Source of the DNA: an uncultured Planctomycetia bacterium
GTDB taxonomy: Bacteria; Omnitrophota; Gorgyraeia; 1-14-0-20-64-10
NCBI GenBank assembly: GCA_964373715.1
Contig: CAYJVR010000002.1
Span: 118,521 to 182,520, forward strand
Direction: 5' to 3'
Length of the DNA: 64,000 nt
A model generated the notes under the pieces. The model was not told the origin of the DNA, did no database searches, and worked only from the letters and a program-made list of their open reading frames with translations. The position numbers and the translations under genes were made by a program. Shown here piece after piece: positions 24,557 through 43,395 of this stretch; positions within the stretch are counted from its first letter, which is position 1; each line of letters starts with the position of its first letter.

Positions 24557-24584
24557 CTGTATGATAAAAAAGGAGGCACTATTG

Positions 24585-26563: not shown

Positions 26564-26589
26564 GACCATCTCATGGAAGAGGATAAGAA

Positions 26590-28176: not shown

Positions 28177-30831
28177 ATGGAATTGACCGAGAGGAGCACC
28201 GTTTCCCTGCCCAAAACCGTCGAGTGGCAGAAAGAGGGCGTTCATATTTTTCTTGATCCTGAGACGCCTCACTGGCTAGCGGCTGATTCCAGAGGGGCGC
28301 AGATCATGAGCTGGGCCAGGGGAGAGATGCCGGTCGGCCGGATCATTCAGCGTTATTCGGAGGCGCACGGGCTCGATACGGCGAAGAGCTGGCTTCACGT
28401 GACCGATTTTCTCTCCGCCCTTCTGCGCTCCGGTTTCGCCCGGACTGAACTGGTCGCCCGGGCTCCTTACCTCGGACGAGCCGCCTACGCCCGCCCGACC
28501 GGCTTAAAGGAGCTCTGGTTCCATACCAACAACATCTGCAATCTCTCTTGCTCCCATTGTCTTGTCAGTTCCGCCCCCTGGGTGCAGGACTGGGGCCTGC
28601 CGACAGACCGGTTCCTTTCTCTCGTGGATGAGGCGATCGAGCTGGGGGTGGACAGATTTTACTTCACCGGCGGCGAGCCGTTCATGCGCAAGGATATCTT
28701 TCATCTGATCCGCACCGTTACCGAGACGAAGGGTTGCGAGCTGATCATCCTGACCAACGCTACGCTGTTGAAAGGGGAGAAAGCGGAAGGGGTCAAAACC
28801 CTCAATCGCCAGAAGGTCCGGTTCCAGGTCAGCGTGGACGGCGCCTCCCCTGAAACCAACGATCCGATTCGAGGCAAGGGGTCGTTCCAGTCGGCGGTGG
28901 AGGGGTTAAGATACCTGGCTTCGCTCGGGTTCGAGACTTCCATCACAACGGCGGTGACCGGCACCAACCTGCAGGACCTGTTGGGGATCACCCGGCTTGC
29001 CCGGGAACTCGGCGTCAAAACCCAGCATTTGATGTGGCTCCATAAGCGGGGACGGATAGTGGGCCGGGAGGAGGTGGCTGCACCTGCTGCTGTGGCTGTC
29101 GCCGCCGGCGGGAACGGTTCCAAATCCCCCGGTTGGGCCGATGGCCATCAGAGAAAAATGAAAGCCTTTTCAGGTCAGACCGAGCTTGGATTTCCGGAAT
29201 CGCAGCAGCTCATTGATGCGGTCCGGAAGGTAAAGGTTTTGGCGGATGAGCTGGGTGTCACGGTGGACAACCTCGAGTCGATCAAATTGAGGGTCAACTC
29301 CCGTCCCGGTGTAAAGTACGACTTAGGAAATGCCTGCTGGGATTCTCTCTGCATCTATTCGGACGGGAAGGTGTATCCTTCCGCGGCGATGGCCAATTTC
29401 AAGCCGCTTATGCTGGGCTCGCTGAAAGAAACCCCCTCTTTAAAAGAGATTTGGCAGCGGTCTCCGGTCGCCGAAGCGTTCCGGCAGGCCTCCGTCAACC
29501 GGAAGGCTCACCTGGCCGATGATCCGCTTCGCTACCTCACAGGCGGTGGAGATTCGGAGCACAGTTTCTTTTTTAACTTAAACGGCGATTCGGAATCCGG
29601 GACGATTGCTCCCGAGAAGATCCTCGACATTCTGTCGGGTCCCGACCCGTACTACCCGGTTTATCAGGCGATGATCCAGGATGCGATCTGGGAAATCGTT
29701 CTGCACAAACGGGACGCGGTCAACCGGAAGTCTGGCTACGATGCCCCGCGCGTCCTGCACGCGATGGGGGACGGAGCGATACACTGCGCTACCGACGATT
29801 TGGCGATCACTGGAGAGATCGATGTGAGGACCCTGCACTCTAACTGTGTTCTCGCGTTCGACGTGGACAAGCCGAGAAAGATGGTGCGGGAGTTTTACGG
29901 CAAGGCGGCCGAAACGCCGCAGGCCGAGCTTTGCTGTCCCACGAAGTTCGACGATTCCGCGATCGCCCACATCCCGAAAGATGTGATCGACCGGTTCTAC
30001 GGCTGCGGTTCTCCGGTCACCTCCGGCAATTTGAAAGAGGGAGAGACCTTTTTGGATCTTGGCTCGGGCGCCGGGATAGACTGCTTCATTGCCGCCAAGC
30101 TCGTCGGCCCGAAGGGCAAGGTGCTCGGGATCGATATGACCGATCAGATGCTGAAGGTAGCTGAAGAAAACAAGCCGATCGTCGCAAAGAATCTCGGCTA
30201 TGACGTGGTGGAGTTCCGAAAAGGATTTCTCGAGACGGTTCCGGCTGACTCAAAAAGCGTTGATCTGATTACCTCCAACTGCGTGATCAATCTTTCGCCG
30301 GACAAACCGAAGGTTTTCTCCGAGATCTGGCGGATCTTGAAGGACAACGGACGGACCGTGATCGCCGATATTGTCTCCGACCGGCCGGTGCCGGCCCATC
30401 TGAAGGTCAATCCCCAGTTGTGGGGCGAGTGCACCGTGGGGGCTCTGACCGAAGAGGAATTCCTGGCCCATCTTCAGGAAGCCGGTTTCTACGGCCTCTC
30501 GGTCTTGAAGAAGGTCTACTGGAAATCGATCGACGGCTACGATTTTTACTCGGTCACGGTGGCCGGCTACAAGTTCGAAAAGACGGCCGGCTGCACGTTC
30601 ATCGGGCAGAGGGCGATTTATCTGGGCCCGATGAAATCGGTCATGGACGAGGAAGGGCACCTGTTCCCCCGGGATGTGGAGGTGGAGGTTTGCACCGACA
30701 CCGCGGCGAAGCTCTCGAAGCCGCCGTACGCCGGCTCGTTCACTGTGATCCAACCGGACGCTCAGCGGATCTCTGTGACCGCGAACATGCAGTCTGCCGA
30801 TAGCGGCTGCGGTCCCGCAGGCTGCTGCTGA
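28177..30831 (+). CDS. Four-part fusion: PqqD-like RRE + radical SAM + SPASM/twitch-like Cys cluster + ArsM-type As(III) SAM methyltransferase, with a C-terminal Cys-rich tail (CGPAGCC)
   Basis: Residues 20-85 are PqqD/RRE-like (IFLDPETPHWLAADSRGAQIMSWARGE...DFLSALLRSG). CNLSCSHC (CxxxCxxC) + FTGGEP. NACWDSLCIYSDGKVYPS (SPASM-like). ArsM hallmarks FYGCGSP, LDLGSGAGIDCF, ITSNCVINLSPDKPKVF and WGECTVGAL. The last 12 aa are SADSGCGPAGCC. Its stop overlaps the arsR start (TGATG). Confidence 0.85.
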   Translation: MELTERSTVSLPKTVEWQKEGVHIFLDPETPHWLAADSRGAQIMSWARGEMPVGRIIQRYSEAHGLDTAKSWLHVTDFLSALLRSGFARTELVARAPYLGRAAYARPTGLKELWFHTNNICNLSCSHCLVSSAPWVQDWGLPTDRFLSLVDEAIELGVDRFYFTGGEPFMRKDIFHLIRTVTETKGCELIILTNATLLKGEKAEGVKTLNRQKVRFQVSVDGASPETNDPIRGKGSFQSAVEGLRYLASLGFETSITTAVTGTNLQDLLGITRLARELGVKTQHLMWLHKRGRIVGREEVAAPAAVAVAAGGNGSKSPGWADGHQRKMKAFSGQTELGFPESQQLIDAVRKVKVLADELGVTVDNLESIKLRVNSRPGVKYDLGNACWDSLCIYSDGKVYPSAAMANFKPLMLGSLKETPSLKEIWQRSPVAEAFRQASVNRKAHLADDPLRYLTGGGDSEHSFFFNLNGDSESGTIAPEKILDILSGPDPYYPVYQAMIQDAIWEIVLHKRDAVNRKSGYDAPRVLHAMGDGAIHCATDDLAITGEIDVRTLHSNCVLAFDVDKPRKMVREFYGKAAETPQAELCCPTKFDDSAIAHIPKDVIDRFYGCGSPVTSGNLKEGETFLDLGSGAGIDCFIAAKLVGPKGKVLGIDMTDQMLKVAEENKPIVAKNLGYDVVEFRKGFLETVPADSKSVDLITSNCVINLSPDKPKVFSEIWRILKDNGRTVIADIVSDRPVPAHLKVNPQLWGECTVGALTEEEFLAHLQEAGFYGLSVLKKVYWKSIDGYDFYSVTVAGYKFEKTAGCTFIGQRAIYLGPMKSVMDEEGHLFPRDVEVEVCTDTAAKLSKPPYAGSFTVIQPDAQRISVTANMQSADSGCGPAGCC

Positions 30832-31142
30832 TGAAGAAAAGCCTCACCCAGCATGAGGCGGCGGAGCTGTTCAAGGCGCTGGCGGATGAGACCCGCTTGA
30901 GGATCTTGCGGATCCTGTTCGAGAGGGAGCACTGCGTGACCGACCTGATGACCGAGCTGAAGCTCGCGCAGTCCTATGTGTCGCACCACTTAAAGATACT
31001 GAAAACCGCCGGGTTGATTGACTCCCGGAGGGAAGGGCATAAGATCTACTACGCCCTTTTGCCGCAGGTGAAGCAGGGATTGTCGGACGCGAAACAGGAG
31101 TCGCTCGACTTAGGTTGCTGCGAAGTGACGTTCAAGGAGTAA
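30831..31142 (+). CDS. arsR: ArsR/SmtB-family metalloregulatory repressor
   Basis: HTH (CVTDLMTELKLAQSYVSHHLKILKTAGL) and a C-terminal Cys pair (LDLGCCEV) typical of As(III)-sensing ArsR variants. Translationally coupled to the upstream gene. Confidence 0.85.
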   Translation: MKKSLTQHEAAELFKALADETRLRILRILFEREHCVTDLMTELKLAQSYVSHHLKILKTAGLIDSRREGHKIYYALLPQVKQGLSDAKQESLDLGCCEVTFKE

Positions 31143-31164
31143 TTTTTTTTGGTTTTAATAATCG

Positions 31165-31180
31165 AACCATGTTGATGGTT
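31165..31180. promoter_or_regulatory. Perfect inverted repeat AACCAT-N4-ATGGTT between arsR and the PiT gene (candidate operator)
   Basis: AACCATGTTGATGGTT lies 20 nt upstream of the PiT RBS, in an AT-rich spacer. Confidence 0.3.
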
Positions 31181-31199
31181 TGATTAAAAAGGAGAAGAG

Positions 31200-32312
31200 A
31201 TGACGGCTCTTTTTCTGATTGCGGCGGTTCTTTTCCTTGCCTACACCAACGGGGCGAACGATAACTTCAAGGGGGTTGCCACACTTTTCGGCAGCAAAAC
31301 GGCCGATTACCGTAAAGCGCTTGCTTGGGCGACCGTCACCACTTTTGCCGGCTGTCTTGCCGCGATCTGGGTTTCTCAGGGGTTGATCAAGGCTTTCAGC
31401 GGAAAGGGGATCGTGCCTGCCGCGATGACGACCGATCCGAGATTTTTGTTGGCCGTCGGTTTTGGCGCTGCCCTAACCGTTTTCTTGGCAACGCTGCTCG
31501 GATTCCCGATTTCAACGACCCATGCGCTGACCGGCGCTCTGGTGGGGGCCGGGTGGATGTTGGTTGGGTCCCAGGTGAATGTGGGGAAATTGGGCCAAAG
31601 TTTCTTCCTGCCTCTGGCGTTAAGCCCTGTTGTATCTTTGGCGATTACAACAGTTTTGTATCCCTCCCTCCGGTTTATCCGGCAGACGGTCGGCGTGACG
31701 AAACAGTTGTGTCTTTGCATCGGGCCGGTCCGTGAGCCGGTTCTTGTCCGGACTGACGGGACCATGGTGATGAAAGCGACCGGGTCCGAGCTGTCGGTCG
31801 GGGAACTGAAGAACTGCGTTGAGCAGTACCAAGGGGTCCTTCTCGGCGTTGATTTCCAGCGGGTGATCGATTTTTTTCATTACCTTTCGGCCGGGGCCGT
31901 CGGTTTTGCGCGCGGGTTGAACGACGCGCCCAAGATCGTGGCCATCCTCATCACCGCCCAAGCTCTGCGCATTGGGACGAGGGAAGCCCTTCTGCTTGTC
32001 GCGGTTGCGATGGCCGCTGGCGGCATTCTGAGCGCCAAGAAGGTGGCGCAGACGATGAGCCAGCGGATCACAGCGATGAACCACGGCCAGGGATTCACAG
32101 CGAATTTGGTCACCAGCGTCCTTGTCTCGATGGCTTCCCGCTTTGCGTTGCCGGTTTCAACGACGCATGTTTCCTGCGGCGCCCTTTTCGGTATCGGTTT
32201 GGTCAACCGGAATGCCAACGTCGGTGTCATCCGGAACATCCTGCTTTCCTGGCTGATCACCCTTCCTGTCGCGGCGGGTGTGGCGGCCTCTCTCTATTGG
32301 CTACAGCGGTAG
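31200..32312 (+). CDS. PiT-family inorganic phosphate (and arsenate) transporter
   Basis: Duplicated GANDxxK/N signature (NGANDNFKG; ARGLNDAPKIVA), about 10 TM helices, and a large central loop. Confidence 0.85.
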   Translation: MTALFLIAAVLFLAYTNGANDNFKGVATLFGSKTADYRKALAWATVTTFAGCLAAIWVSQGLIKAFSGKGIVPAAMTTDPRFLLAVGFGAALTVFLATLLGFPISTTHALTGALVGAGWMLVGSQVNVGKLGQSFFLPLALSPVVSLAITTVLYPSLRFIRQTVGVTKQLCLCIGPVREPVLVRTDGTMVMKATGSELSVGELKNCVEQYQGVLLGVDFQRVIDFFHYLSAGAVGFARGLNDAPKIVAILITAQALRIGTREALLLVAVAMAAGGILSAKKVAQTMSQRITAMNHGQGFTANLVTSVLVSMASRFALPVSTTHVSCGALFGIGLVNRNANVGVIRNILLSWLITLPVAAGVAASLYWLQR

Positions 32313-32381
32313 GCGAGTACGAGCGGAGAAATTCCAGCGCCTCTTTTTGCCCTCATTTATGATTTCCGTCATATAAATGGT

Positions 32382-32410
32382 TTGACTTCAATCTTATAAT
32401 TGGTCATTAT
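32382..32410 (+). promoter_or_regulatory. Promoter-like element upstream of the porin gene (TTGACT-N17-CATTAT)
   Basis: AT-rich island in an otherwise GC-rich window; -35 TTGACT at 32382-32387 and a -10-like CATTAT at 32405-32410. Confidence 0.3.
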
Positions 32411-32430
32411 TCAACCTATTGAGGTAAATC

Positions 32431-33723
32431 ATGAAAAATATGCGTGGCCGTATGGCGTTGTGGATGGCTGGGGTCTTCTTTGTATCTTATGCTGTTCCCG
32501 TGCAGGCGTCGGAGATGGACATCCTGCTGAGGAAGTTGGTGGAGAAGAAGGTTTTGACCGAGCAGGAGGCGCAGGAAGTCCGTGGCGAGGTGGAGCAGGA
32601 AGTTGCCCGGTCCGCCAAATTCGAGAAGGAAGACGTCAAGGAAACCGTCAAGAAGATACCCGGAGGGACCTGGCTCGAGAAAACGAAATGGGCCGGCGAC
32701 CTGCGCCTGCGGCACGAGAGCCAACTGCGGGAGCCCGCGGCCGACCGGCATCGGGAACGATTCCGCTTGAGGTTCGGTTTCACGACGAAACCGTGGGACC
32801 AGATGGAGGTGGGTGTCCGGCTGGCTACCGGCGCCAGCGGTGATCCGGTTTCCACCAACCAGAGTTTTACCGGCACTTTCGACAAAAAAGCGGTTTTCAT
32901 TGACCGGGCGTACGCGAAATACACGCCGTGGCCCTGGTTCAATCTTGTTGGCGGCAAGATGGAGATACCGTTCGACACTGCCACGGAGATTTTTTGGGAC
33001 GGGGACCTGACGCCGGAAGGGGTGGCCGTTCAGTTCAAGACGCCGGAACCCCTGCCGTTTTTTAAAGAAACTTTTCCGACCAAACTGTTTGCCAACGTCG
33101 GGGCGTTTCAGATTTCGGAGCTCAGCGACGACGCCGGGGATCCGGCAATGTTTGGTTTCCAGGTTGGGAAAGAGACAGGGTTGCCCCGCGGGTTGGTGTG
33201 GACCTCTTCCATCGGTTATTATGACATCACCGCGGTCAGGGGAAAGAGGACTTCTGACATTACTCAGGTGAGCGCTCCCAGCGGCAACTCGACCGATGGT
33301 CCGGTCGCAGCGCCGGTCTACCGGTACGATTTCAACCCGCTCGATATCCAGGGGAAGCTGCTGATTCCGGATATCCTCGGCCAGCAGGTGGTGCTGATCG
33401 GGGATTTTGTCCATAACCCGGTTGCGGAGGATGATAACGGCGCCTGGCAGGCGGGCATCAAGGTGGGGAAGGTGACCGAGAAGATGGGGAGCTGGGAATC
33501 TTCCTACTACTACAAAAGAGTTGAACCGGACGCGATTTTCGGGGCGATCACCGATTCCGATTTTGGCGCCGGCGGATCGAACCATCACGGGCACCGAGTC
33601 GGCCTGCGGGTCGGTTTGAGCAAATGGACTGAGGCCGGCATCACTTATTACCGCACCGATGAGATCGAAGGGGCCCAGAACAAGGTGGATACTCTGCAGG
33701 TGGACGCTTCTGTAAAATACTGA
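32431..33723 (+). CDS. Putative outer-membrane porin (beta-barrel with an N-terminal coiled-coil segment)
   Basis: Signal peptide, charged coiled-coil N-terminus, alternating hydrophobic beta-strand pattern, C-terminal aromatic (…DASVKY). AT-rich promoter-like region upstream. Confidence 0.6.
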   Translation: MKNMRGRMALWMAGVFFVSYAVPVQASEMDILLRKLVEKKVLTEQEAQEVRGEVEQEVARSAKFEKEDVKETVKKIPGGTWLEKTKWAGDLRLRHESQLREPAADRHRERFRLRFGFTTKPWDQMEVGVRLATGASGDPVSTNQSFTGTFDKKAVFIDRAYAKYTPWPWFNLVGGKMEIPFDTATEIFWDGDLTPEGVAVQFKTPEPLPFFKETFPTKLFANVGAFQISELSDDAGDPAMFGFQVGKETGLPRGLVWTSSIGYYDITAVRGKRTSDITQVSAPSGNSTDGPVAAPVYRYDFNPLDIQGKLLIPDILGQQVVLIGDFVHNPVAEDDNGAWQAGIKVGKVTEKMGSWESSYYYKRVEPDAIFGAITDSDFGAGGSNHHGHRVGLRVGLSKWTEAGITYYRTDEIEGAQNKVDTLQVDASVKY

Positions 33724-33799
33724 GCGGGTCACCCTGTTTTTTTGCGAGCCGGGGAGTGAACAACTCCCCTGTTTTGTTTTGAAGTAGAATAGTGGAATC

Positions 33800-34855: not shown

Positions 34856-34869
34856 GAAACCTTAGATTA

Positions 34870-37819: not shown

Positions 37820-37868
37820 CCCCACCACCTGTTTTCTCGGTGATGGGCAGGTTAAAGGAGGTGGTGGG

Positions 37869-39398
37869 GTGAGCCGTATCGCTGTGGTTGGAGGCGGACT
37901 TGCCGGTTTGGCCGCCGCTATCCGCTGCGCCCACGCGGGGCATGAAGTGACTCTGTTTGAGAAGAACGACCGGGCGGGGGGGAAGATGAACGTGATCGAG
38001 GAACGAGGGTTCCTTTTCGACACCGGCCCCACCATTATGACGATGCCGCAGAATCTGAACCGGTTGTTTGCCTCGGTAGGCCGGCGGCGGGAGGATTACA
38101 TTCCGCTCGTTCCGCTTGATCCCCAGTGGCGGGCTTTTTTCGAGGACGGGAAGGTGATCAACGTTTGGGGGAACCGGGGAAAAATGACCGAAGAGATCCG
38201 CCGGTTTTCGAGCAAAGATGCCGATTCGTACGCCCGGTTCCGGGAATATGCGCAAAGGATGTACGGGTTTGCGGAGAGGTTCTTCTTCTGGCGTTCGGTG
38301 AGCAATCTGAACGACCTGCTGGCGATGAACGGCCTGATGGGTATGGAGAGCATGAAAATCCTGTGGCAGATAGATCCGCTAGCGACCGTTTCAAACGCGA
38401 TTGACCGGCATTTCCAGGAGCCTCATGTGCGGCAGATCTTAGAGCATTTCATGCAGTACGTTGGTTCGGACCCGCACCGGGTCCCGGCGTTCCTGACGGC
38501 CATTCACCATATCCAGATGGAGTTCGGTGTCTGGTACCCGATGGGGGGCATGAATCGGATTGCCGCCGGCCTGACCCGGCTGGCGAATGATCTCGGCGTG
38601 AAGATTGTCCTTAACGCCCAGATCAGCCGGATCGTAACCGAAGGATTCCGTGTCCGAGGTGTGGAACTCCAGGGAGAGATGGTTCCGGCCGATGCGGTCC
38701 TTGCCAATTCGAACTTTGTTCGTTCCCACAAAGAGCTTCTGCCGGCGACCGCCACAAAACGACGCATTGAGAATAACCCTAAAAGGTATGAACCGGCCTG
38801 TTCGGGGATCGTGATCTATTTTGGGGTGGACCGGAAATATGATTCTCTCTGGCACCACGACTTCTTTTTTTCAAAGGATCCGAAACGGGAATTTGAGGAC
38901 ATCTACCGAAGGAAAATCCCGACGCAGGACCCGACGCTGTGCGTCTGCGCCCCTTCCCGGACCGACGCCTCCGTGGCTCCGCCCGGCTGCGAAAACGTTT
39001 ACGTGCTGGTGCATACTCCATACCTGCAGGGAAAAGAAAACTGGGAGACCCTCTACCGGCCGTACAGAGACCTGATCGTCCGGAAGCTGGAGAGGTGCGG
39101 GCTGACCGATTTCCGGAAACACATCGTAGTGGAGAAGTGGATGACGCCGGTGGATTTGGAGCAGCGGTACCGGGTGGACCGAGGGGCAATCTATGGGATC
39201 GCCAGCCACGGCCGGTTCCGGGGAGGGTTTAAACCTTCCAACCGGTCGAAAGATTTTTCGAATCTCTACTTCTGCGGAGGCAGCGTTAATCCCGGCCCCG
39301 GTGTCCCGATGGCGCTCATGTCGGGGCAGATTGCCGCCGACTGCGTTCTTGAGGACATCGGTTCGGTTCGTGCCTTCCGGCAGCCTAGTTTGGTTTAA
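37869..39398 (+). CDS. Phytoene-desaturase-family FAD-dependent oxidoreductase, copy 2; likely GTG start at 37869, preceded by AAAGGAGG
   Basis: IAVVGGGLAGLAAA...LFEKNDRAGGK; C-terminal YFCGGSVNPGPGVP. Confidence 0.8.
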   Translation: MSRIAVVGGGLAGLAAAIRCAHAGHEVTLFEKNDRAGGKMNVIEERGFLFDTGPTIMTMPQNLNRLFASVGRRREDYIPLVPLDPQWRAFFEDGKVINVWGNRGKMTEEIRRFSSKDADSYARFREYAQRMYGFAERFFFWRSVSNLNDLLAMNGLMGMESMKILWQIDPLATVSNAIDRHFQEPHVRQILEHFMQYVGSDPHRVPAFLTAIHHIQMEFGVWYPMGGMNRIAAGLTRLANDLGVKIVLNAQISRIVTEGFRVRGVELQGEMVPADAVLANSNFVRSHKELLPATATKRRIENNPKRYEPACSGIVIYFGVDRKYDSLWHHDFFFSKDPKREFEDIYRRKIPTQDPTLCVCAPSRTDASVAPPGCENVYVLVHTPYLQGKENWETLYRPYRDLIVRKLERCGLTDFRKHIVVEKWMTPVDLEQRYRVDRGAIYGIASHGRFRGGFKPSNRSKDFSNLYFCGGSVNPGPGVPMALMSGQIAADCVLEDIGSVRAFRQPSLV

Positions 39399-39404
39399 AA
39401 AACG

Positions 39405-40508
39405 GTGTCAGCCAACCTTTACACCCATCCTCCGTCGAGGTTGTTGTACGCTCAGGTCAGGGAAGATCCCGATGTGGATCTTCAAGCTCTGCGTATTGTT
39501 CCCGACGACAAGGTGCTGGCCGTCACCTCCGGCGGCTGCACCGCGCTGACCCTGCTGGCGGAAGGGCCGAAGGAGCTCCTCTGCGTCGATTTCAACCCCG
39601 CCCAGAATTACCTGCTCGAGCTTAAACTGGCGGCGATCCGCAGTCTGCCCCTGGTTGAATGCCGATCTTTCCTCGGGGCCCGTAAAGGAGGCGGACGGTT
39701 GGCCGCGTACCGGTCCCTGACCGGAGCGCTTTCACCGCTGACCCGGGTCTTTTGGGACAAGAACCCCCAGAGGATCGAGGAGGGGGTCCTTTACGCGGGC
39801 GCCACCGAAGCGATGGTGAAATGGATGAGGCGCCTTGTCTTTGGGTTTGTCCATTCTCCCGAGACGTTAAGGCCTTTGCTTAAACAGAGAGATACGCAGG
39901 CCCAAACCGATTTTTACAAGAATGTTTGGAACAATAAACGGTGGCAAGGTGTAATGAAACTGGCTTTCCATCCGCTGATGTTCAAAGTTGTTTACGGGCG
40001 CCGGTTTCTTCAACGGCTCGGCGAGGAAGATCTTACCAGTTTGTGGATGCAGAAGATCGAGCATGCCTTCACAGATATCCCGGTCCGAAACAACTATTTT
40101 CTTTCCCAGTTATTTTGGGGAAGGTTCCTTCCCGGAGAAGAAGGGCTGCCGCCCTATCTGCGTGAAGGGGTCTTCGAGCGGGTCCGGGCGAACGCCGGCC
40201 GTTTGAAATGGGTGACGGGCGATCTTATCACTGTTTTAGGAAGCGTTCCTCTGGGGCGTTACACCAGGATGACCCTTTCCAACGCTTTTGAGTGGATTCC
40301 AAAAATGAGGACAAAAGAGGCGTTTGAGTCTCTGTCCTGGGCTCTCGCACCCGGCGGGAAGGCGGTTGTGCGGCACCTGCTGGGCGTGACCCCTCTGCCG
40401 GCCGGCGTTGATTTGCGGGAGCTCAAAGAAGTCAGCGATCGGCTGACAGTCCAGGAAAGGGCATTCCTTTACAGCCGGGTATCGGTTTATGAAAGGACCC
40501 GGCAATGA
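39405..40508 (+). CDS. DUF3419 / BtaA-like protein (family of SAM:diacylglycerol 3-amino-3-carboxypropyl transferase)
   Basis: N-terminal LLYAQVREDPDVDLQAL...VLAVTSGGCTAL matches the YAQVWEDP...SAGCN signature I recall for BtaA/DUF3419. Confidence 0.6.
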   Translation: MSANLYTHPPSRLLYAQVREDPDVDLQALRIVPDDKVLAVTSGGCTALTLLAEGPKELLCVDFNPAQNYLLELKLAAIRSLPLVECRSFLGARKGGGRLAAYRSLTGALSPLTRVFWDKNPQRIEEGVLYAGATEAMVKWMRRLVFGFVHSPETLRPLLKQRDTQAQTDFYKNVWNNKRWQGVMKLAFHPLMFKVVYGRRFLQRLGEEDLTSLWMQKIEHAFTDIPVRNNYFLSQLFWGRFLPGEEGLPPYLREGVFERVRANAGRLKWVTGDLITVLGSVPLGRYTRMTLSNAFEWIPKMRTKEAFESLSWALAPGGKAVVRHLLGVTPLPAGVDLRELKEVSDRLTVQERAFLYSRVSVYERTRQ

Positions 40509-41461
40509 CGGCTGTTGTTTCGCGCAGGTGGTTAGGCCCGCTGTGCAGGTGGCTCTGGTATCTGTCCCTCTCTTATTTATGGCTTGGCCTGATGTTCCTC
40601 CTGTTCATCCATCAGGCGACCTCTTTTTTCTGGTGGGGTTTGCCAGCGGCCGTCATTTTTTGGAGATTGGCGAAAGCTCTGTCGCCGCATTCTTTCGGAA
40701 CCTTCGGCAAATGGACGGTCCATTTTCTCTGCGCGTTTTTGCTTATCGGCGGGCAAGTTCTCCTATGGCGTTACGGCTATTTTTTCCGGGATCCGGAAAG
40801 GGTAATCCCTTCCCGGCCGGCTATCCTGGCTCCGGCGGATGGTTTTATCGTTTATATCCGGCCGGTCAGCGAGGGGATGGTTCCTCTGGCCATCAAGAAC
40901 AAGGTGCCGATCCGGTTGGAGGAGATCCTCAAGATGGAGAGTCCCATCGGGGAAAGCGTGATCGTCGGGATCTTCATGACGCCGATGAGCGTCCACATCA
41001 ACCGGTCCCCGATCAACGGTGTTATCCAGGAGAGGGCCTACTTTACGGGGGAGCCGATGCGCTCGATGCTGCCGATGGGTCTTCGCACGATGTTTCTTCG
41101 AAAACCTTTTGAAGCGGGGTCGGAGCATATTCTCCGGAATGAGAGGGAGACCCTGTTGATCCGAGGAGATTTCCCGGTTTTGCTGACCCGTATTGCCGAC
41201 CCTTTCGTGGATAAGATTGTGACCTGGAAAACCATCGGAGAGACGGTCCGGCAGGGTGAACGGCTGGGGCTCATCAAGATGGGTTCCCAAACGGATCTGG
41301 TGTTTCCTTCCCGGATGAACGGCAAGCCGGTCCGCGTTTATGTCAAAGAGGGACAGTATGTGTATGCCGGCAGCACCATTCTCGCCGATTACGATGGCGC
41401 TGCCCTCGCACACCACCCTCTCCCCCTGCTAGGGGGAGAGGATAAAGGTGAGGGGGTATGA
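40505..41461 (+). CDS. Phosphatidylserine-decarboxylase-like (pyruvoyl-dependent) enzyme with N-terminal TM segments
   Basis: Three N-terminal TM helices; FMTPMSVHINRSP.NG and LIKMGSQTD (the G-S-T/Q self-cleavage region) resemble PSD family motifs. ATGA overlap with the upstream gene. Confidence 0.65.
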   Translation: MTAVVSRRWLGPLCRWLWYLSLSYLWLGLMFLLFIHQATSFFWWGLPAAVIFWRLAKALSPHSFGTFGKWTVHFLCAFLLIGGQVLLWRYGYFFRDPERVIPSRPAILAPADGFIVYIRPVSEGMVPLAIKNKVPIRLEEILKMESPIGESVIVGIFMTPMSVHINRSPINGVIQERAYFTGEPMRSMLPMGLRTMFLRKPFEAGSEHILRNERETLLIRGDFPVLLTRIADPFVDKIVTWKTIGETVRQGERLGLIKMGSQTDLVFPSRMNGKPVRVYVKEGQYVYAGSTILADYDGAALAHHPLPLLGGEDKGEGV

Positions 41462-43395
41462 TCTCCGTCATCATCCCGACGCTGAACGAAGAGGCAACCC
41501 TTCAGGCAACGCTCGATTCAGTTGCGGCCAACCAGGCGGATTATGAAGTAATCGTCGTGGATGCCGGCAGCAGCGACAAAACGGCGGAGATTGCGCACGG
41601 CGCCGGCGCTCGCCTTCTGGTGAGCCCCCGGCGACATCGGGCGGCCCAGATGAATTTTGGGGCGAAGGAGGCGAAAGGGGAGATACTGTTCTTCCTCCAC
41701 GCCGATACCCGGATTCCTACCGCCGCTTTGAAACGGATCGAGCAGGCGCTTGCGCGGGCGGACATGGTTGGCGGCGGGTTCCGTCGTTATTTCGATTCAA
41801 AGTCGCTGTTTTTGAGAGCCAGTTGCTGGGTGGCCGGGATCCGGTGCCGGGTCTCGGGGCTGTTCTTGGGGGACCAGGGGATATTCATCCGGCGCAGTCT
41901 CTTTGAAAAATTGGGCGGTTTCCGGGAGCTGGATTTCTTTGAGGATGTGGATCTCTGCCGTCGGATGAAGGAATTTGGACGGGTGGCGACCCTGGGTCCG
42001 CCGGTTCTTTCATCGGCCCGCCGGTTCGAGCGTTTTGGGCCGGTGGCCACGACCTTCACGGACCTCTCTTTATCGCTGAGGTACATAAAAGGGGAAGATC
42101 CGAACGGTTTAGCCGCAGAATTGAGGGGTGAGTTCACGTCCGGCGAAAAGATATCGGCCATCATCCCGACACTCAATGAAGAAGAGTCATTGCCCCGCCT
42201 GCTTTCCCAGGTTTGCGGAAAAGTTGAGGAGGTGATCGTCGTTGATGGGGGGTCTTCGGACGGCACAGTGGAAGCCGCTCGGCATTTTCCGGTCAAGGTC
42301 ATCCTCTCCGCGAGGGGGAGGGCTTTTCAGATGAATACGGGGGCGTCAGCCGCTTCAGGGGATCTCCTCTGGTTTCTCCACGCTGATACCCAGCTGCCGT
42401 CCAATTGGCGCGGGCAGATGGCCTCTGCTTTGAGAAAGCCATCCGTTATTGGAGGGGGATTCCGAGTGGTGATTGATGCCTCCGGCATCGGGTACCGTTT
42501 TCTCGATTTATGGGGGCGGTTGCGCACCGGCATCCAAGGGTCTTTCTATGGAGACCAGGGGATCTTTGTGCGTCGCGGATTCTTTGAATCGTTAGGAGGG
42601 TTTGACGACCGTCCTGTTTTGGAAGATTTGGATTTCTCAACGAGGATGTCACGGCGGGCCAGGGTAAAAATTCTTGCCGGGCCTATAAAAACGTCGGCCA
42701 GACGCTGGCAATCCCAGGGCTGGTGGTCCACCGTGTTGCAGCACTGCCGGTACGCTGTTTCTTACCTGTTTAGCCCGAAAGCCGGTTCTGCGGCCGTTTT
42801 GATCGTTATGGCAAAAGCCCCTGTTCCCGGTCAGGTGAAGACCCGGCTTATTCCGGCTTTAAACCCGGAACAGGCCGCTCAGATTGCCGAAAGGCTTTTG
42901 AGGGAAACAGCGGTTCTTGTCCATCAGGTGGAGGGGATCCGCCCCGTTATTGCCGTTTCCCCTCCGGAGGGAATGGAGCGGGTGAAAGAGGTCCTTTCTT
43001 TTCCGGCGAGATTGATTCCTCAGCCGGAAGGGGATCTTGGGATCCGTTTGACCCGGTTATTCCAGGAGACTTTTGATTCCGGCGCCCAGGCGGTGCTGGT
43101 GTTGGGGGCCGATCACCCGAATCTTCCGCAAGAGTATCTGGCGCAGGCGGTAGCGGAGTTAAGAAAAAGAGGGGACCGGGTTGTGTTCGGGCCGACCGAG
43201 GATGGCGGATATTATCTGGTCGGGATGAAAAGGCCGCACCCCGAGCTGTTTGCCGGGATAACCTGGAGCACCTCTGAGGTCTTGCGCCAAACCCTGGGAA
43301 AGGCGAAGACCTCTGGAGTTTCTGTAAAGCTATTACCTTCCTGGTACGATTTGGATCGGCCTGAGGATTTGGCCCGGTTAGCCGTTGTGACTTGA
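41458..43395 (+). CDS. Triple fusion: GT2 glycosyltransferase + GT2 glycosyltransferase + DUF2064 (MobA-like nucleotidyltransferase fold)
   Basis: Two copies of the IS(V/A)IIPTLNEE...(L)FLHADT GT-A signature at residues 1-210 and 220-440. C-terminal LIVMAKAPVPGQVKTRLIP...GADHPNL...EDGGYYLVG resembles DUF2064. ATGA overlap with the upstream gene. Confidence 0.8.
   Translation: MISVIIPTLNEEATLQATLDSVAANQADYEVIVVDAGSSDKTAEIAHGAGARLLVSPRRHRAAQMNFGAKEAKGEILFFLHADTRIPTAALKRIEQALARADMVGGGFRRYFDSKSLFLRASCWVAGIRCRVSGLFLGDQGIFIRRSLFEKLGGFRELDFFEDVDLCRRMKEFGRVATLGPPVLSSARRFERFGPVATTFTDLSLSLRYIKGEDPNGLAAELRGEFTSGEKISAIIPTLNEEESLPRLLSQVCGKVEEVIVVDGGSSDGTVEAARHFPVKVILSARGRAFQMNTGASAASGDLLWFLHADTQLPSNWRGQMASALRKPSVIGGGFRVVIDASGIGYRFLDLWGRLRTGIQGSFYGDQGIFVRRGFFESLGGFDDRPVLEDLDFSTRMSRRARVKILAGPIKTSARRWQSQGWWSTVLQHCRYAVSYLFSPKAGSAAVLIVMAKAPVPGQVKTRLIPALNPEQAAQIAERLLRETAVLVHQVEGIRPVIAVSPPEGMERVKEVLSFPARLIPQPEGDLGIRLTRLFQETFDSGAQAVLVLGADHPNLPQEYLAQAVAELRKRGDRVVFGPTEDGGYYLVGMKRPHPELFAGITWSTSEVLRQTLGKAKTSGVSVKLLPSWYDLDRPEDLARLAVVT

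What the first reader, a model, noticed from the sequence alone, without database searches (positions are those of the whole stretch)
28177..43395. Co-directional island of about 15 kb: rSAM-ArsM fusion, arsR, a PiT transporter, a porin, DUF3047, two CrtI-like oxidases, an aldehyde dehydrogenase, a BtaA-like protein, a PSD-like enzyme and a GT2-GT2-DUF2064 fusion
All genes are on the plus strand with short gaps or ATGA/TGATG overlaps (30831, 40505-40508, 41458-41461), which suggests one or two operons. From memory, TIGRFAMs pairs a 'radical SAM/Cys-rich (seleno)domain' family (TIGR04167, later linked to ArsS) with two 'rSAM/selenodomain-associated transferases' (TIGR04282 = DUF2064, TIGR04283 = GT2). 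Both transferase types are present here, fused into one protein at 41458-43395. Between them sit lipid- or headgroup-tailoring enzymes: a BtaA-like SAM aminocarboxypropyl transferase, a pyruvoyl decarboxylase, two FAD desaturase/oxidase homologs and an aldehyde dehydrogenase. Together with the arsR + PiT (arsenate uptake) pair, this looks like a candidate arsenic-containing glycolipid or arsenosugar-like biosynthesis system with a gene content that is not described.
Basis: inference. Interest (0 to 1): 0.85.

Follow-up and report, generated by a model that had tools for sequence, protein, structure and literature searches.

The report
Variant arsenosugar cluster with lipid module
An uncultured, probably Omnitrophota, bacterium carries a variant of the known arsenic-methylation/arsenosugar gene set: the usual radical enzyme ArsS is replaced by a different radical SAM enzyme fused to the arsenic methyltransferase, and a six-gene lipid-type module of unknown product sits inside the cluster.

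Summary
The 645-aa protein is TIGR04283 x2 plus TIGR04282, both above cut-off. The "15-kb island" is not one unit, and its left border is wrong.

Module A is PyrRedox, VTT/DedA, DUF547, rSAM-ArsM, PiT and GT2/DUF2064, starting at 25013. It recurs around the same fusion in five or more phyla. Its accessory genes match those of canonical ArsS/ArsM "arsenosugar" clusters, such as the PGAP-annotated Acinetobacter portensis plasmid. No ArsS is present. The fused radical SAM is an RRE-rSAM-SPASM-like enzyme (TIGR04167 59.7 bits vs 300). This is best read as non-orthologous displacement of ArsS.

Module B is DUF2892, CrtI, ALDH, CrtI, DUF3419 and PSD-like. It is absent from all 25 distant fusion loci. 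In other Omnitrophota PiT and the GT gene are adjacent, so B is an insert here. B lies beside a second, shorter rSAM-ArsM fusion and an ArsC-like gene in Elusimicrobiota-type contigs, and also stands alone elsewhere. Its link to arsenic is plausible but unproven, and its product is unknown.

Verdict: a new variant of a known kind, with moderately high interest.

The parts
24522..24998 (+). Small secreted hypothetical protein (158 aa by the longest ORF). It is a lineage-specific neighbour of the operon.
   Evidence: No Pfam or NCBIfam hit. It has an N-terminal hydrophobic segment. Copies with 62-67% identity lie in Omnitrophota loci: directly upstream of PyrRedox in L002, L003 and L167, and about 4.7 kb upstream of it in L168.
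25013..26563 (+). Module A: FAD-dependent pyridine nucleotide-disulfide oxidoreductase (MerA/glutathione-reductase class).
   Evidence: Pyr_redox_2 and Pyr_redox_dim. NF004991 scores 814.7 bits against a cut-off of 620. It has the GGDCLNAGCVPSK redox motif. Homologues lie next to the fusion in L006, L007, L016, L017, L026, L167 and L168, and next to ArsS in L169, L173 and L174.
26590..27237 (+). Module A: VTT/DedA (TVP38/TMEM64) membrane protein.
   Evidence: VTT_dom 101.7 bits, with 5 hydrophobic segments. It is conserved next to the fusion (L016, L017, L020, L023, L167, L168). In ArsS clusters it is fused to DUF547 (L169) or to the oxidoreductase (L173, L174).
27279..28130 (+). Module A: DUF547 protein with a signal peptide.
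   Evidence: DUF547 98.8 bits. It has a signal-like N-terminus and a CAAKGC motif. It is conserved in L013, L015, L016, L017, L026 and L168, and in the ArsS clusters L169 and L173.
28177..30831 (+). Module A core: an 884-aa fusion protein. Domains: RRE/PqqD-like N-domain (aa 1-~95); radical SAM core (aa ~110-295, CNLSCSHC 121-128); disordered insert (aa 299-335); degenerate SPASM-like region (aa ~340-530); ArsM-type As(III) SAM methyltransferase (aa ~559-860); Cys tail CGPAGCC (aa 878-884).
   Evidence: Pfam and NCBIfam domain hits. All four ArsM cysteine motifs are invariant in 64 homologues: C586/587, C610, C702, C752. AF2 model: pLDDT 86, pTM 0.86. By Foldseek the C-terminal half matches ArsM/AS3MT structures, and the N-terminal half matches CteB, SuiB, SkfB, TigE and anSME. 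Not ArsS: TIGR04167 scores 59.7 against 300.
30831..31142 (+). ArsR/SmtB regulator, translationally coupled to the fusion.
   Evidence: HTH_5 67.9 bits; NF033788 98 bits against a cut-off of 55. Its start shares one base with the fusion's stop codon. Cysteines at C34 and C95-C96. Outside close relatives it is not conserved next to the fusion.
31200..32312 (+). Module A: PiT (PHO4) phosphate/arsenate-type transporter.
   Evidence: PHO4 212.6 bits. It is adjacent to the fusion in 8 of 25 distant loci and in L167, L168 and L172. It is adjacent to ArsM in the ArsS clusters L169 and L173, with 43% identity to the A. portensis copy.
32431..33723 (+). Porin_5 outer-membrane porin, a lineage-specific addition.
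   Evidence: Porin_5 194 bits. It is found only in the close relatives L002 and L003. A terminator-like hairpin lies at 33751-33769 and a promoter-like site at 32382-32410, but overall counts are at chance.
33800..34855 (+). Periplasmic DUF3047 domain fused to a DUF2892/YgaP-like two-helix membrane domain (aa ~282-351). The latter is the first gene of module B elsewhere.
   Evidence: DUF3047 216.6 bits and YgaP-like_TM. DUF3047 is also found beside the fusion in L006 and beside ArsM/ArsS in L032. The C-terminal part matches free-standing 73-74 aa genes that head module B in L084 and L085.
34870..36393 (+). Module B: CrtI/CrtN-family FAD oxidoreductase a.
   Evidence: TIGR02734 463.6 bits, cut-off 238. 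Probable start GTG 34870. Orthologues in L085 and L172 (58-59%) and L087 (72%).
36353..37819 (+). Module B: aldehyde dehydrogenase.
   Evidence: Aldedh 430 bits. The best PDB matches are generic ALDH, betaine-aldehyde and succinate-semialdehyde dehydrogenases. Orthologues in L084, L085, L172 and L087.
37869..39398 (+). Module B: CrtI/CrtN-family FAD oxidoreductase b.
   Evidence: TIGR02734 428.7 bits. It matches carotene desaturases 4rep and 4dgk over the full length (E 4e-84 and 7e-80), whereas amine oxidases match only the FAD motif. Orthologues with 62-72% identity in L084, L085, L172 and L087.
39405..40508 (+). Module B: DUF3419 (BtaA-like) putative SAM 3-amino-3-carboxypropyl transferase.
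   Evidence: DUF3419 205.8 bits. The orthologue group is small, about 16 clusters at 46% identity or more. Identity to rhizobial DUF3419 genes on plasmids is only 24-29%. No PDB relative.
40505..41461 (+). Module B: membrane-anchored PSD-like pyruvoyl decarboxylase.
   Evidence: PS_Dcarbxylase 127 bits, but below all NCBIfam PSD cut-offs. It has 2-3 N-terminal hydrophobic helices. PADG, SVHxNR and MGSQ (G260-S261) are invariant in 6 orthologues. It always follows DUF3419 with an overlap.
41458..43395 (+). Module A: GT2 (aa 2-219) - GT2 (aa ~232-440) - DUF2064 (aa 448-638) fusion. It is translationally coupled to the PSD-like gene.
   Evidence: TIGR04283 444.8 bits (two stretches) and TIGR04282 200.9 bits, both above cut-off. 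Glycos_transf_2 and DUF2064. Homologues lie next to the fusion in 7 distant loci and in L167 and L168, and next to ArsS in L169, L173, L174 and L077.
43455..43781 (+). 2x[4Fe-4S] ferredoxin, a possible electron donor for the radical SAM domain. Membership of the system is uncertain.
   Evidence: Fer4 families. It starts 59 nt after the GT gene. It is conserved only in the close relative L087, together with GreA and MFS, so this may be plain synteny.

Best explanation
The region is a composite of two modules.

Module A comprises 25013-32312, 41458-43395 and probably the DUF3047 domain. It is a homologue of the ArsM/ArsS 'arsenosugar biosynthesis' gene set. The canonical radical SAM enzyme ArsS has been replaced by an unrelated radical SAM of the RRE-rSAM-SPASM (peptide-maturase-like) class, fused to the N-terminus of ArsM.

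Proposed course of events (all steps inferred unless marked):
1. Arsenate or phosphate enters through the porin and PiT.
2. ArsR de-represses the operon when As(III) is present.
3. The ArsM domain methylates As(III). The fold and all four catalytic cysteines are shown here; the activity is inferred.
4. The disulfide oxidoreductase keeps the ArsM and arsenical thiols reduced.
5. The fused radical SAM half makes the second type of C-As bond. The most economical guess is the ArsS reaction, addition of 5'-deoxyadenosyl to dimethylarsenite.
6. The DUF2064 nucleotidyl-transferase-like domain and the two GT2 domains activate the arsenoribose and transfer it to an acceptor.
7. The VTT/DedA protein and the secreted DUF547 and DUF3047 proteins handle a membrane- or periplasm-exposed intermediate.

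Module B (34634-41461: DUF2892, CrtI, ALDH, CrtI, DUF3419, PSD-like) is a separate, mobile six-gene lipid-type tailoring unit. In this lineage it was inserted between PiT and the GT gene. It probably makes or modifies a hydrophobic acceptor or membrane lipid used under the same arsenate/low-phosphate condition. Its substrate is unknown.
For: (1) Same accessory set as ArsS clusters.
- The PGAP-annotated A. portensis plasmid reads arsS, VTT/FAD oxidoreductase, DUF547, TIGR04283, TIGR04282, ArsM-like methyltransferase, PiT, mtnP, sterol desaturase.
- Six of these have homologues in the window at 30-43% identity.
- Phycisphaerales L169 shows the same set.

(2) The partners recur around the fusion in Nitrospirota, Acidobacteriota, Gemmatimonadota, Planctomycetota, Thermoanaerobaculia and Omnitrophota.
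- Of 25 distant loci: PiT in 8, GT in 7, PyrRedox in 6, DUF547 in 5 and VTT in 4; 15 loci have at least one partner.
- L016 has all of them on one strand.
- L167 reads PyrRedox, VTT, fusion, GT2-DUF2064, PiT.

(3) Mutual exclusion. No true ArsS lies in the window or in any fusion locus. ArsS loci lack the SPASM-type fusion.

(4) Rosetta stones.
- rSAM-ArsM-TIGR04283 fusion: 134.8 bits on a truncated protein.
- rSAM-ArsM fused to an MbdU-like metal-binding domain.

(5) The ArsM half is genuine.
- Cysteine motifs are invariant in 64 sequences.
- phmmer against ArsM structures gives E 4e-41.
- Foldseek gives E 1e-22.

(6) B is an insert. It is absent from L167 and L168, where PiT and GT are adjacent, and from all 25 distant loci.

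(7) B is a unit in its own right. It has the same genes in a different order in L084. It lies beside a shorter, divergent rSAM-ArsM fusion and an ArsC-like LMWP in L085 and L172.

(8) In the window B is translationally coupled to the GT gene.
Against: - No biochemical evidence exists for any step here. In the canonical system only ArsM and ArsS have experimental support (as cited in PMC8552651). The names of TIGR04282 and TIGR04283 are context-based.
- Ten of 25 distant fusion loci show none of the partners within 10 kb.
- The window lacks the MTA phosphorylase and the sterol-desaturase-like gene found in canonical clusters. A full arsenosugar route is therefore not encoded locally.
- The fused radical SAM keeps a peptide-binding-type RRE domain but only three conserved Cys in its SPASM region. 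Neither feature is explained by an ArsS-like reaction.
- The ArsM half scores below the NCBIfam cut-offs (227.7 vs 263).
- B occurs without arsenic genes in L084. DUF3419-PSD alone occurs in L086 and L171.
Confidence: 0.6

Rival explanations
1. All genes from 28177 to 43395 form one pathway that builds a single arsenic-containing glycolipid. The BtaA-like, PSD-like, CrtI-like and ALDH enzymes tailor the headgroup or lipid of that same molecule.
For: - The genes are co-directional and tightly packed, with ATGA overlaps linking DUF3419, PSD and GT.
- The same arrangement is kept in L002, L003 and L087.
- Module B again lies next to an rSAM-ArsM fusion, PiT and an ArsC-like gene in L085 and L172.
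- The PSD-like protein is membrane-anchored.
- Lipid-associated genes (patatin, FA_hydroxylase/sterol desaturase) accompany module A elsewhere.
Against: - B is absent from 25 of 25 distant fusion loci and from the Omnitrophota loci L167 and L168.
- B stands alone in L084.
- L002, L003 and L087 are close relatives in which the flanking housekeeping genes are also syntenic, so they count as a single observation.
Confidence: 0.25
2. Module B has nothing to do with arsenic. It is a lipid or C30-carotenoid-acid-type pathway (CrtN-like desaturase, CrtNb/CrtP-like oxidase, aldehyde dehydrogenase) combined with an aminopropylation pair (ACP transfer, then decarboxylation). It merely landed inside the ars-type operon.
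For: - Both CrtI-like proteins are true phytoene-desaturase-family members.
- Clusters of crtN, crtNb and an aldehyde dehydrogenase, with the squalene synthase gene elsewhere, are described in Methylomonas (PMC10745290).
- B occurs without arsenic genes in L084. DUF3419-PSD alone occurs in L086 and L171. Distant pairs occur in L151, L156, L160 and L161.
Against: - No squalene or diapophytoene synthase lies in the 64 kb window or in L084, L085 or L172.
- Of three arrangement types that carry the full B, two place it directly beside rSAM-ArsM genes. These belong to two different subfamilies, with only 33% identity in the rSAM part, and sit with PiT and ArsC-like genes.
- No known carotenoid pathway uses a BtaA-like or PSD-like enzyme (my own knowledge).
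Confidence: 0.35
3. The fusion and its neighbours are only an arsenic detoxification (ars) operon. ArsM volatilises or detoxifies arsenic. The radical SAM half, GTs, VTT and DUF547 serve unrelated envelope functions.
For: - ArsR is coupled to the fusion.
- Ars-type neighbours (ArsC-like LMWP, ArsR, a second ArsM) appear in L071, L085 and L172.
- Stand-alone ArsM genes sit in ordinary ars operons.
Against: - The window has no ArsB/Acr3 efflux gene and no ArsC.
- A covalent fusion kept in at least 120 protein clusters at 52% identity or more over 96% or more of the query, plus a triple fusion with a TIGR04283 domain, argues that the radical SAM, methyltransferase and GT act on one substrate.
Confidence: 0.1
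4. The fusion is a peptide (RiPP-type) maturase that methylates and crosslinks a peptide or protein. The arsenic resemblance is only family-level.
For: - N-terminal RRE/PqqD-like domain (PqqD Pfam hit in relatives P0401 and P0329; beta3-alpha3 pattern in the model).
- The best structural matches of the N-terminal half are CteB, SuiB, SkfB and TigE.
Against: - No conserved small ORF lies beside the fusions.
- Only three conserved Cys remain in the SPASM region.
- All four As(III)-binding cysteines of ArsM are invariant.
- The conserved neighbours are those of ArsS clusters.
- The short fusions of L085 and L172 lack the RRE.
Confidence: 0.05

Closest known systems
ArsM/ArsS arsenosugar gene set. 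Examples: Synechocystis SsArsM + SsArsS; the PGAP-annotated cluster on Acinetobacter portensis plasmid NZ_CP096121.1, 137070-146127; Phycisphaerales L169.
   Same: ArsM-type methyltransferase with four conserved Cys, a radical SAM enzyme, PiT, a VTT/DedA protein, an FAD disulfide oxidoreductase, DUF547, a TIGR04283 GT2 and a TIGR04282 DUF2064. These occur in one co-directional cluster.
   Different: - The radical SAM is not ArsS. It has no DUF3641 domain, and TIGR04167 scores 59.7 vs 300. It is an RRE-rSAM-SPASM-like enzyme fused to ArsM.
- The ArsM half is not in the ArsS-linked ArsM subfamily (NF038099 156 vs 400; 32% identity to the A. portensis copy).
- The window has no mtnP and no sterol-desaturase-like gene.
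- Both GT2 domains and DUF2064 are fused into one protein.
- A porin, DUF3047 and module B have been added.
Arsinothricin cluster arsQML of Burkholderia gladioli (ArsL radical SAM + ArsM).
   Same: A radical SAM enzyme and an ArsM work together to make an organoarsenical with two kinds of C-As bond (PMC8552651). The window's ArsM half matches the arsinothricin ArsM model NF040538 at 214 bits.
   Different: The 214 bits lie far below the cut-off of 500. There is no ArsQ permease. No NCBIfam arsinothricin radical SAM (ArsL) model appears among the 25 best matches shown for the radical SAM half. ArsL is described as a 428-aa single-cluster enzyme that is not fused to ArsM.
RRE-rSAM-SPASM peptide maturases (CteB, SuiB, SkfB, TigE) and the twitch-type enzyme BlsE.
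   Same: The overall architecture of the N-terminal 530 aa is the same. Foldseek E values are 3e-15 to 9e-12, and the CteB alignment spans 528 columns with TMt 0.68. BlsE is the best sequence match in the PDB.
   Different: Only three conserved Cys remain where these enzymes bind one or two auxiliary clusters. No precursor peptide gene was found. The enzyme is fused to ArsM.
C30 carotenoid acid genes crtN, crtNb/crtP and crtNc/aldH (Methylomonas, Staphylococcus, Planococcus).
   Same: Two CrtI-family oxidoreductases and an aldehyde dehydrogenase are clustered, with the C30 backbone synthase encoded elsewhere (PMC10745290). In those pathways a GT2 acts next (my own knowledge of staphyloxanthin CrtQ).
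   Different: Orthology to CrtN or CrtP was not tested. No synthase gene was seen. The trio is interleaved with DUF3419 and PSD-like genes (L084). The GT2 domains belong to TIGR04283.
BtaA/BtaB betaine-lipid synthesis and phosphatidylserine decarboxylase.
   Same: DUF3419 is the BtaA family. The PSD-like protein keeps the Asp-His-Ser autoprocessing residues and a membrane anchor. ACP transfer followed by decarboxylation equals aminopropylation, a logic known from microcin C maturation (my own knowledge).
   Different: There is no BtaB methyltransferase. Identity to rhizobial DUF3419 genes is only 24-29%. The protein scores below every NCBIfam PSD cut-off.

Membership tests
ArsM / AS3MT As(III) SAM methyltransferase | Class I SAM-binding fold with the DxGxGxG motif | tested here: met
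   DLGSGAGID at aa 627-635. Methyltransf_31 scores 109 bits. Foldseek against 6cx6, 5evj, 4fr0 and 8xt7 gives E 1e-22 to 5e-20.
ArsM / AS3MT As(III) SAM methyltransferase | Four conserved cysteines that bind As(III) and form the disulfide cascade (CmArsM C44, C72, C174, C224) | tested here: met
   ELCCP (C586/587), FYGCG (C610), SNCVINL (C702) and WGEC (C752) align to the ArsM structures. They are present in 64 of 64 homologues. The CmArsM residue numbering is from my own knowledge.
ArsM / AS3MT As(III) SAM methyltransferase | Score above the curated family cut-off | tested here: not met
   NF008823 scores 227.7 vs 263, NF040538 214 vs 500 and NF038099 156 vs 400. The domain is therefore a divergent ArsM clade, not one of NCBI's named subfamilies.
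ArsM / AS3MT As(III) SAM methyltransferase | Methylation of arsenite | not testable with these tools
   Needs an enzyme assay or in vivo speciation.
ArsS (TIGR04167) arsenosugar radical SAM | Family HMM above cut-off, with the C-terminal DUF3641 Cys/Sec-rich domain | tested here: not met
   The score is 59.7 bits vs 300, covering only the generic rSAM core (aa 109-255). The control ArsS of L169 scores 400.5 and carries DUF3641.
ArsS (TIGR04167) arsenosugar radical SAM | CxxxCxxC radical SAM cluster motif | tested here: met
   C121, C125 and C128 are invariant. This motif is shared by the whole superfamily, so it does not discriminate.
TIGR04283 / TIGR04282 rSAM-associated ('arsenosugar biosynthesis') transferases | Family HMMs above cut-off | tested here: met
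   TIGR04283 scores 444.8 (two copies) vs 182. TIGR04282 scores 200.9 vs 134.
TIGR04283 / TIGR04282 rSAM-associated ('arsenosugar biosynthesis') transferases | Location beside a radical SAM enzyme and ArsM | tested here: met
   This holds for the window, for L013, L016, L020, L025, L026, L027, L071, L167 and L168 (fusion type), and for L169, L173, L174 and L077 (ArsS type). L170 is an exception.
TIGR04283 / TIGR04282 rSAM-associated ('arsenosugar biosynthesis') transferases | Transfer of an arsenosugar | not testable with these tools
   The held library yielded no report of an assay: no paper holds 'arsenosugar', 'glycosyltransferase' and 'ArsM' together, and the family accessions appear in only five papers. 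The family name is context-derived.
SPASM/twitch radical SAM peptide maturases | RRE (PqqD-like) domain + rSAM + SPASM fold | tested here: met
   Foldseek matches CteB, SuiB, SkfB and TigE. SPASM Pfam scores 24.3 vs 21.5. PqqD Pfam hits occur in relatives but not in the window protein itself.
SPASM/twitch radical SAM peptide maturases | Seven or eight Cys ligating auxiliary [4Fe-4S] clusters | tested here: not met
   Only C392, C537 and C557 are conserved between aa 300 and 560.
SPASM/twitch radical SAM peptide maturases | Adjacent precursor peptide gene | tested here: not met
   ORF clustering found no recurrent small ORF around the fusion loci. The ORF finder had a 70-aa floor, so shorter peptides were not examined.
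BtaA (betaine lipid synthase) | DUF3419 domain | tested here: met
   205.8 bits vs 28.2.
BtaA (betaine lipid synthase) | Partner BtaB N-methyltransferase, and orthology to characterised BtaA | tested here: not met
   No methyltransferase gene lies in module B in any locus. Identity to rhizobial DUF3419 genes is 24-29%. No NCBIfam hit.
Phosphatidylserine decarboxylase | PS_Dcarbxylase domain with Asp-His-Ser autoprocessing residues and a Gly-Ser cleavage site | tested here: met
   Pfam scores 127 bits. D112, H164 and G260-S261 are invariant in 6 orthologues. Assignment of the triad is by motif, from my own knowledge of E. coli PSD.
Phosphatidylserine decarboxylase | Score above the curated PSD equivalog cut-offs | tested here: not met
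   The best score is 119.8 vs 183. There is no PDB sequence match at E <= 0.001.
C30 carotenoid acid pathway (CrtN, CrtNb/CrtP, AldH) | Two CrtI-family enzymes plus an ALDH, clustered | tested here: met
   The arrangement is described in PMC10745290.
C30 carotenoid acid pathway (CrtN, CrtNb/CrtP, AldH) | Squalene or diapophytoene synthase in the genome; orthology to CrtN/CrtP | tested here: inconclusive
   No SQS_PSY gene lies in the 64 kb window or in the B loci. It may lie elsewhere in the genome. Orthology to CrtN/CrtP could not be tested for lack of reference sequences.

The most novel reading that the evidence does not exclude
The RRE-rSAM-SPASM::ArsM fusion is a new class of C-As bond-forming enzyme. 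It either performs the ArsS reaction on a different scaffold or couples a substrate carbon radical to methylated arsenite held by the ArsM cysteines.

In Omnitrophota and Elusimicrobiota it would work with module B (CrtI-type oxidoreductases, ALDH, ACP transferase, pyruvoyl decarboxylase) and the TIGR04283/TIGR04282 transferases. Together they would make a so far undescribed arsenic-containing lipid. This would give the first genetic handle on bacterial arsenolipid biosynthesis beyond ArsM and ArsS.
Probability: 0.25. Interest if true: 0.85.

Novelty: new variant of a known kind. Interest (0 to 1): 0.6.

Why it matters
Beyond ArsM and ArsS, the genes that turn methylated arsenic into arsenosugars and arsenolipids are not established experimentally.

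This locus shows that the ArsS-type gene set exists in a second, widespread form. The search with the N-terminal 560 aa found 134 representative clusters (50% identity level) at E <= 1e-30. That search covers the radical SAM half; the 134 clusters include stand-alone and other fusion architectures. In this second form a different radical SAM is physically fused to ArsM. The fused form is found in Omnitrophota, Nitrospirota, Acidobacteriota, Gemmatimonadota, Planctomycetota and others.

A fusion is a convenient single polypeptide for testing C-As bond formation in vitro. The compact operons, such as L167 with five genes, are small enough for heterologous expression.

If module B proves to be arsenic-linked, it would supply candidate enzymes for the lipid part of arsenolipids. 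If not, it is still an undescribed conserved lipid-type pathway.

Tried and rejected
- **ArsS membership of the fused radical SAM:** rejected.
- **ArsL-like identity:** no model match among the best hits.
- **Horizontally acquired island:** no GC or skew break, and the strand run is far longer than the finding.
- **Operon borders from promoter and terminator scans:** counts are at chance. Only one hairpin after the porin gene is worth noting.
- **Exact look-up of the window's fusion protein:** failed.
- **Metagenome scan anchored on DUF3419:** it returned almost only distant family members (36% identity or less) with none of the island genes. Two informative loci were found.
- **Neighbours of the distant DUF3419-PSD pairs:** a sigma-54 two-component system and unannotated ORFs, with no lipid clue.
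- **L088 (62% DUF3419):** no PSD or arsenic genes nearby.
- **My own idea for module B:** ACP transfer, decarboxylation, amine oxidation and aldehyde oxidation would yield arsenopropionates (the logic of the Spartina DMSP route). It is weakened because the two flavoproteins are full-length CrtI/CrtN-type desaturases, not amine oxidases, and the decarboxylase is membrane-anchored. It is kept only as a low-probability reading.
- **PDB sequence searches:** empty for DUF3419 and for the PSD-like protein.
- **Literature:** the held library has nothing on the fusion, on TIGR04282/TIGR04283 function, or on DUF547/DUF3047 in this context. Xue et al. 2019 (ArsS) is not held.
- **Pfam on the N-terminal 118 aa alone:** no hit. 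The RRE assignment rests on relatives and on the model.

Full report
**1. The observation**

- 28177-30831 encodes an 884-aa protein with Radical_SAM (aa 119-274), a weak SPASM match (aa 387-438) and an ArsM-type methyltransferase (aa ~560-860).
- It is followed by ArsR, PHO4/PiT, Porin_5 and DUF3047, the last with a C-terminal YgaP-like membrane domain.
- Then come a CrtI-family protein, an aldehyde dehydrogenase, a second CrtI-family protein, DUF3419 and a PS_Dcarbxylase protein.
- Last is a 645-aa protein that scores 444.8 bits in two stretches on TIGR04283 (cut-off 182) and 200.9 bits on TIGR04282 (cut-off 134).

The stated overlaps exist: TGATG at 30829-30833, and ATGA at 40505 and at 41458. 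Three longest-ORF starts are too early. The likely starts are 34870, 36353 and 37869.

The 'island' framing does not hold.
- Genes run on the + strand from about 20330 to 52571.
- GC is flat.
- Promoter and terminator matches are at chance.
- The closest relative, a Candidatus Omnitrophica MAG with a 79% identical fusion, is syntenic well beyond the finding on the left. That synteny alone therefore says nothing about function.

**2. The fusion protein**

The C-terminal half is a genuine ArsM-type domain.
- The four cysteine motifs of ArsM/AS3MT (ELCCP, YGCG, SNCVINL, WGEC) align to solved ArsM structures.
- They are invariant in 64 homologues.
- The AF2 model (pLDDT 86, pTM 0.86) matches ArsM and human AS3MT structures at E 1e-22 to 5e-20.
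- It falls below NCBI's curated cut-offs (227.7 vs 263), so it is a divergent clade.

The N-terminal half is not ArsS.
- TIGR04167 gives 59.7 bits against a cut-off of 300, and only over the generic core.
- A real ArsS from locus L169 gives 400.5 bits.
- Structurally it resembles RRE-rSAM-SPASM peptide maturases: CteB over 528 aligned columns, plus SuiB, SkfB and TigE.
- Relatives carry a Pfam PqqD domain at the N-terminus.
- Only three cysteines are conserved in the SPASM region.

A library-wide search with the N-terminal 560 aa finds 134 representative clusters at E <= 1e-30. Their architectures are:
- stand-alone PqqD-rSAM-SPASM;
- rSAM-ArsM;
- ArsM-rSAM in the reverse order;
- rSAM-ArsM fused to an MbdU-like metal-binding domain;
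- rSAM-ArsM fused to a TIGR04283 GT2 domain.

**3. Which neighbours are conserved**

A scan of one genome per species returned 25 full-length fusions in Acidobacteriota, Thermoanaerobaculia, Gemmatimonadota, Nitrospirota and Planctomycetota. I ran tblastn with all window proteins against these loci. The counts of loci with each partner were:

| Partner | Loci (of 25) |
|---|---|
| PiT | 8 |
| TIGR04283/TIGR04282-type GT | 7 |
| Disulfide oxidoreductase | 6 |
| DUF547 | 5 |
| VTT | 4 |
| DUF3047 | 1 |
| CrtI, ALDH, DUF3419 or PSD | 0 |
| No partner within 10 kb | 10 |

Nitrospirae locus L016 carries VTT, PyrRedox, DUF547, GT, the fusion, GT and PiT on one strand.

Other Omnitrophota carry compact versions.
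- L167 reads PyrRedox, VTT, fusion, GT2-DUF2064, PiT.
- L168 adds DUF547, patatin, a further GT2 and an FA_hydroxylase.

In these loci PiT and the GT gene are adjacent. In the window, 9 kb lie between them. The conserved unit (module A) therefore begins at 25013, outside the finding, and the middle of the finding is an insertion.

**4. Relation to the known system**

Loci anchored on the GT protein show canonical ArsS clusters with the same accessory genes.
- Phycisphaerales L169 reads ArsM, PiT, ArsS (Radical_SAM + DUF3641), an AhpC-like gene, a VTT-DUF547 fusion, PyrRedox and so on to GT2-DUF2064-GT2.
- The PGAP-annotated Acinetobacter portensis plasmid reads arsS, a bifunctional TVP38/FAD oxidoreductase, DUF547, TIGR04283, TIGR04282, a methyltransferase, a phosphate transporter, mtnP and a sterol desaturase.
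- A Burkholderia thailandensis plasmid carries a looser version: arsS about 8 kb from, and on the opposite strand to, an mtnP-TIGR04283-TIGR04282-FAD oxidoreductase run, with a bifunctional TVP38/FAD oxidoreductase gene beyond; no DUF547, ArsM-like or PiT gene is annotated in the stretch.
- Six of the A. portensis proteins have window homologues at 30-43% identity.

No true ArsS occurs in the window or in any fusion locus, and no SPASM-type fusion occurs in the ArsS loci.

The simplest reading is non-orthologous displacement of ArsS by a different radical SAM that became fused to ArsM. According to PMC8552651, SsArsS works with SsArsM in the first steps of arsenosugar synthesis. The roles of the transferases are inferred from context. 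The mtnP gene in canonical clusters fits phosphorolysis of a 5'-arseno-adenosine, followed by nucleotidyl activation (DUF2064) and glycosyl transfer (GT2). That chain is my inference. The window itself lacks mtnP.

**5. Module B**

The DUF3419 orthologue group is small, about 16 clusters at 46% identity or more. Its contexts fall into types.
- (i) Omnitrophota (window, L002, L003, L087): embedded in module A.
- (ii) Elusimicrobiota-type contigs L085 and L172: a shorter rSAM-ArsM fusion (654 aa in L172; cut at the contig end in L085). It has no RRE, and its rSAM part is 33% identical to the window's. In L172, PiT lies beyond it. The fusion lies divergent from a small DUF2892 gene (L085; in L172 a 75-aa gene instead lies after PSD), CrtI, ALDH, CrtI, DUF3419 and PSD. 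An LMWP gene follows, homologous to those in ordinary ars operons.
- (iii) L084: the same six genes in another order, with no arsenic gene within 10 kb.
- (iv) L086 and L171: only DUF3419-PSD.
- (v) L088: DUF3419 alone.

Distant DUF3419 genes (26-27% identity) also pair with PSD-like genes.

B is therefore a unit of its own, with DUF3419-PSD as its core. Of three arrangement types carrying the full B, two place it directly against rSAM-ArsM genes of two different subfamilies. In the window its last gene overlaps the GT start. This supports, but does not prove, a link to arsenic.

On its chemistry:
- Both flavoproteins are full-length CrtI/CrtN-type enzymes (E 4e-84 to a carotene desaturase structure).
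- The decarboxylase keeps its Asp-His-Ser/Gly-Ser autoprocessing residues and has N-terminal membrane helices.
- DUF3419 is only 24-29% identical to rhizobial family members, and no BtaB is present.
- The CrtI-ALDH-CrtI trio resembles the crtN, crtNb and aldehyde dehydrogenase clusters for C30 carotenoid acids (PMC10745290).
- No squalene or diapophytoene synthase lies in the window or in the B loci.

I conclude that B tailors a hydrophobic (isoprenoid or acyl) molecule and adds an aminopropyl or homoserine-type group. The substrate remains unknown.

**6. Other members**

- ArsR has Cys34 and vicinal Cys95-Cys96. Vicinal C-terminal cysteines at these positions are the As(III) site of Acidithiobacillus ArsR (my own knowledge). 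This is suggestive only.
- The porin is specific to the close relatives.
- DUF3047 recurs once beside a fusion (L006) and once beside ArsM/ArsS (L032).
- DUF547, DUF3047 and the 158-aa protein carry signal-like N-termini. Part of the chemistry may therefore be extracytoplasmic, which would fit the conserved VTT/DedA protein. NCBIfam's only match for it is a weak hit to the undecaprenyl-phosphate transporter UptA.
- The ferredoxin at 43455 could feed the radical SAM cluster, but it is conserved only in close relatives.

**7. Verdict**

The finding is real and its central prediction, the transferase families, is correct.
- The region is best described as a new variant of the ArsM/ArsS-type organoarsenical cluster, with a fused, non-orthologous radical SAM, plus an inserted accessory lipid-type module.
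- The single-pathway 'arsenic glycolipid' idea is possible for this lineage but not supported as a general rule.
- I found no description of the fusion or of module B in the held literature, and no NCBIfam model names them.
- Interest is moderately high. The fusion is widespread and experimentally tractable, and it may reveal new C-As chemistry. The product and the arsenic link of module B remain to be shown.

Noticed in passing
window 8621-15089 (- strand): A haem-copper oxidase gene set. It includes an 815-aa CtaA (COX15) + CtaB (UbiA) fusion, COX1, a cupredoxin/CarboxypepD_reg protein, and a cytochrome c protein with an EB_dh domain.
   Followed up: no
window 49701-56126: Four ORFs of 244-378 aa have no Pfam hit. 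GC drops to 0.51-0.54 between about 52 and 60 kb, the only compositional change in the window.
   Followed up: no
window 32416-33900 (- strand): An antisense ORF of 494 aa is longer than the Porin_5 gene it overlaps. Pfam supports the + strand gene; the antisense ORF itself was not examined.
   Followed up: no
window 29071-29181 (fusion aa 299-335): An Ala/Gly-rich insert in the radical SAM half is absent from most homologues. It is predicted to be disordered (pLDDT < 50).
   Followed up: partly
proteins P0361, P0323, P0336, P0356, P0384, P0347 (other metagenomes): The same radical SAM family is fused to ArsM in several other ways: rSAM-ArsM-DUF5714 (MbdU-like metal-binding domain, about 1000-1070 aa); ArsM-rSAM/SPASM in the reverse order; and rSAM-ArsM-TIGR04283 GT2 in a Planctomycetota MAG.
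   Followed up: partly
L173 12518-14147; L174 8048-8929: Canonical ArsS clusters on Acinetobacter and Burkholderia plasmids include an MTA phosphorylase (mtnP). The Acinetobacter cluster and L032, L077, L167 and L168 also carry a sterol-desaturase/FA_hydroxylase gene. Neither gene is in the window.
   Followed up: partly
L169 2755-4419 and 8050-8502: The Phycisphaerales ArsS cluster also carries a DUF3179/AhpC-TSA protein and a T4-deiodinase-like protein. Homologues appear beside fusions in L006, L018 and L020.
   Followed up: partly
L001 12502-13413 and 17683-18486: In a 5.99-Mb genome the fusion has none of the module A partners. It is flanked by two metallophosphoesterase genes and a MauG-type di-haem peroxidase.
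   Followed up: no
L151, L156, L160, L161: Distant DUF3419 genes (26-27% identity) have a convergently oriented PSD-like gene nearby. In L151, L156 and L160 (and in L157) a homologous ORF lies directly upstream; the one annotated (L156) is a sigma-54 response regulator, preceded by a histidine kinase. This suggests the DUF3419-PSD pair is an older, regulated unit.
   Followed up: partly
window 39-2168 and 3231-4957: An ADP-forming acyl-CoA synthetase-type protein (CoA_binding, Succ_CoA_lig, ATP-grasp_5), and a hemerythrin followed by a cupredoxin/multicopper-oxidase-like protein.
   Followed up: no
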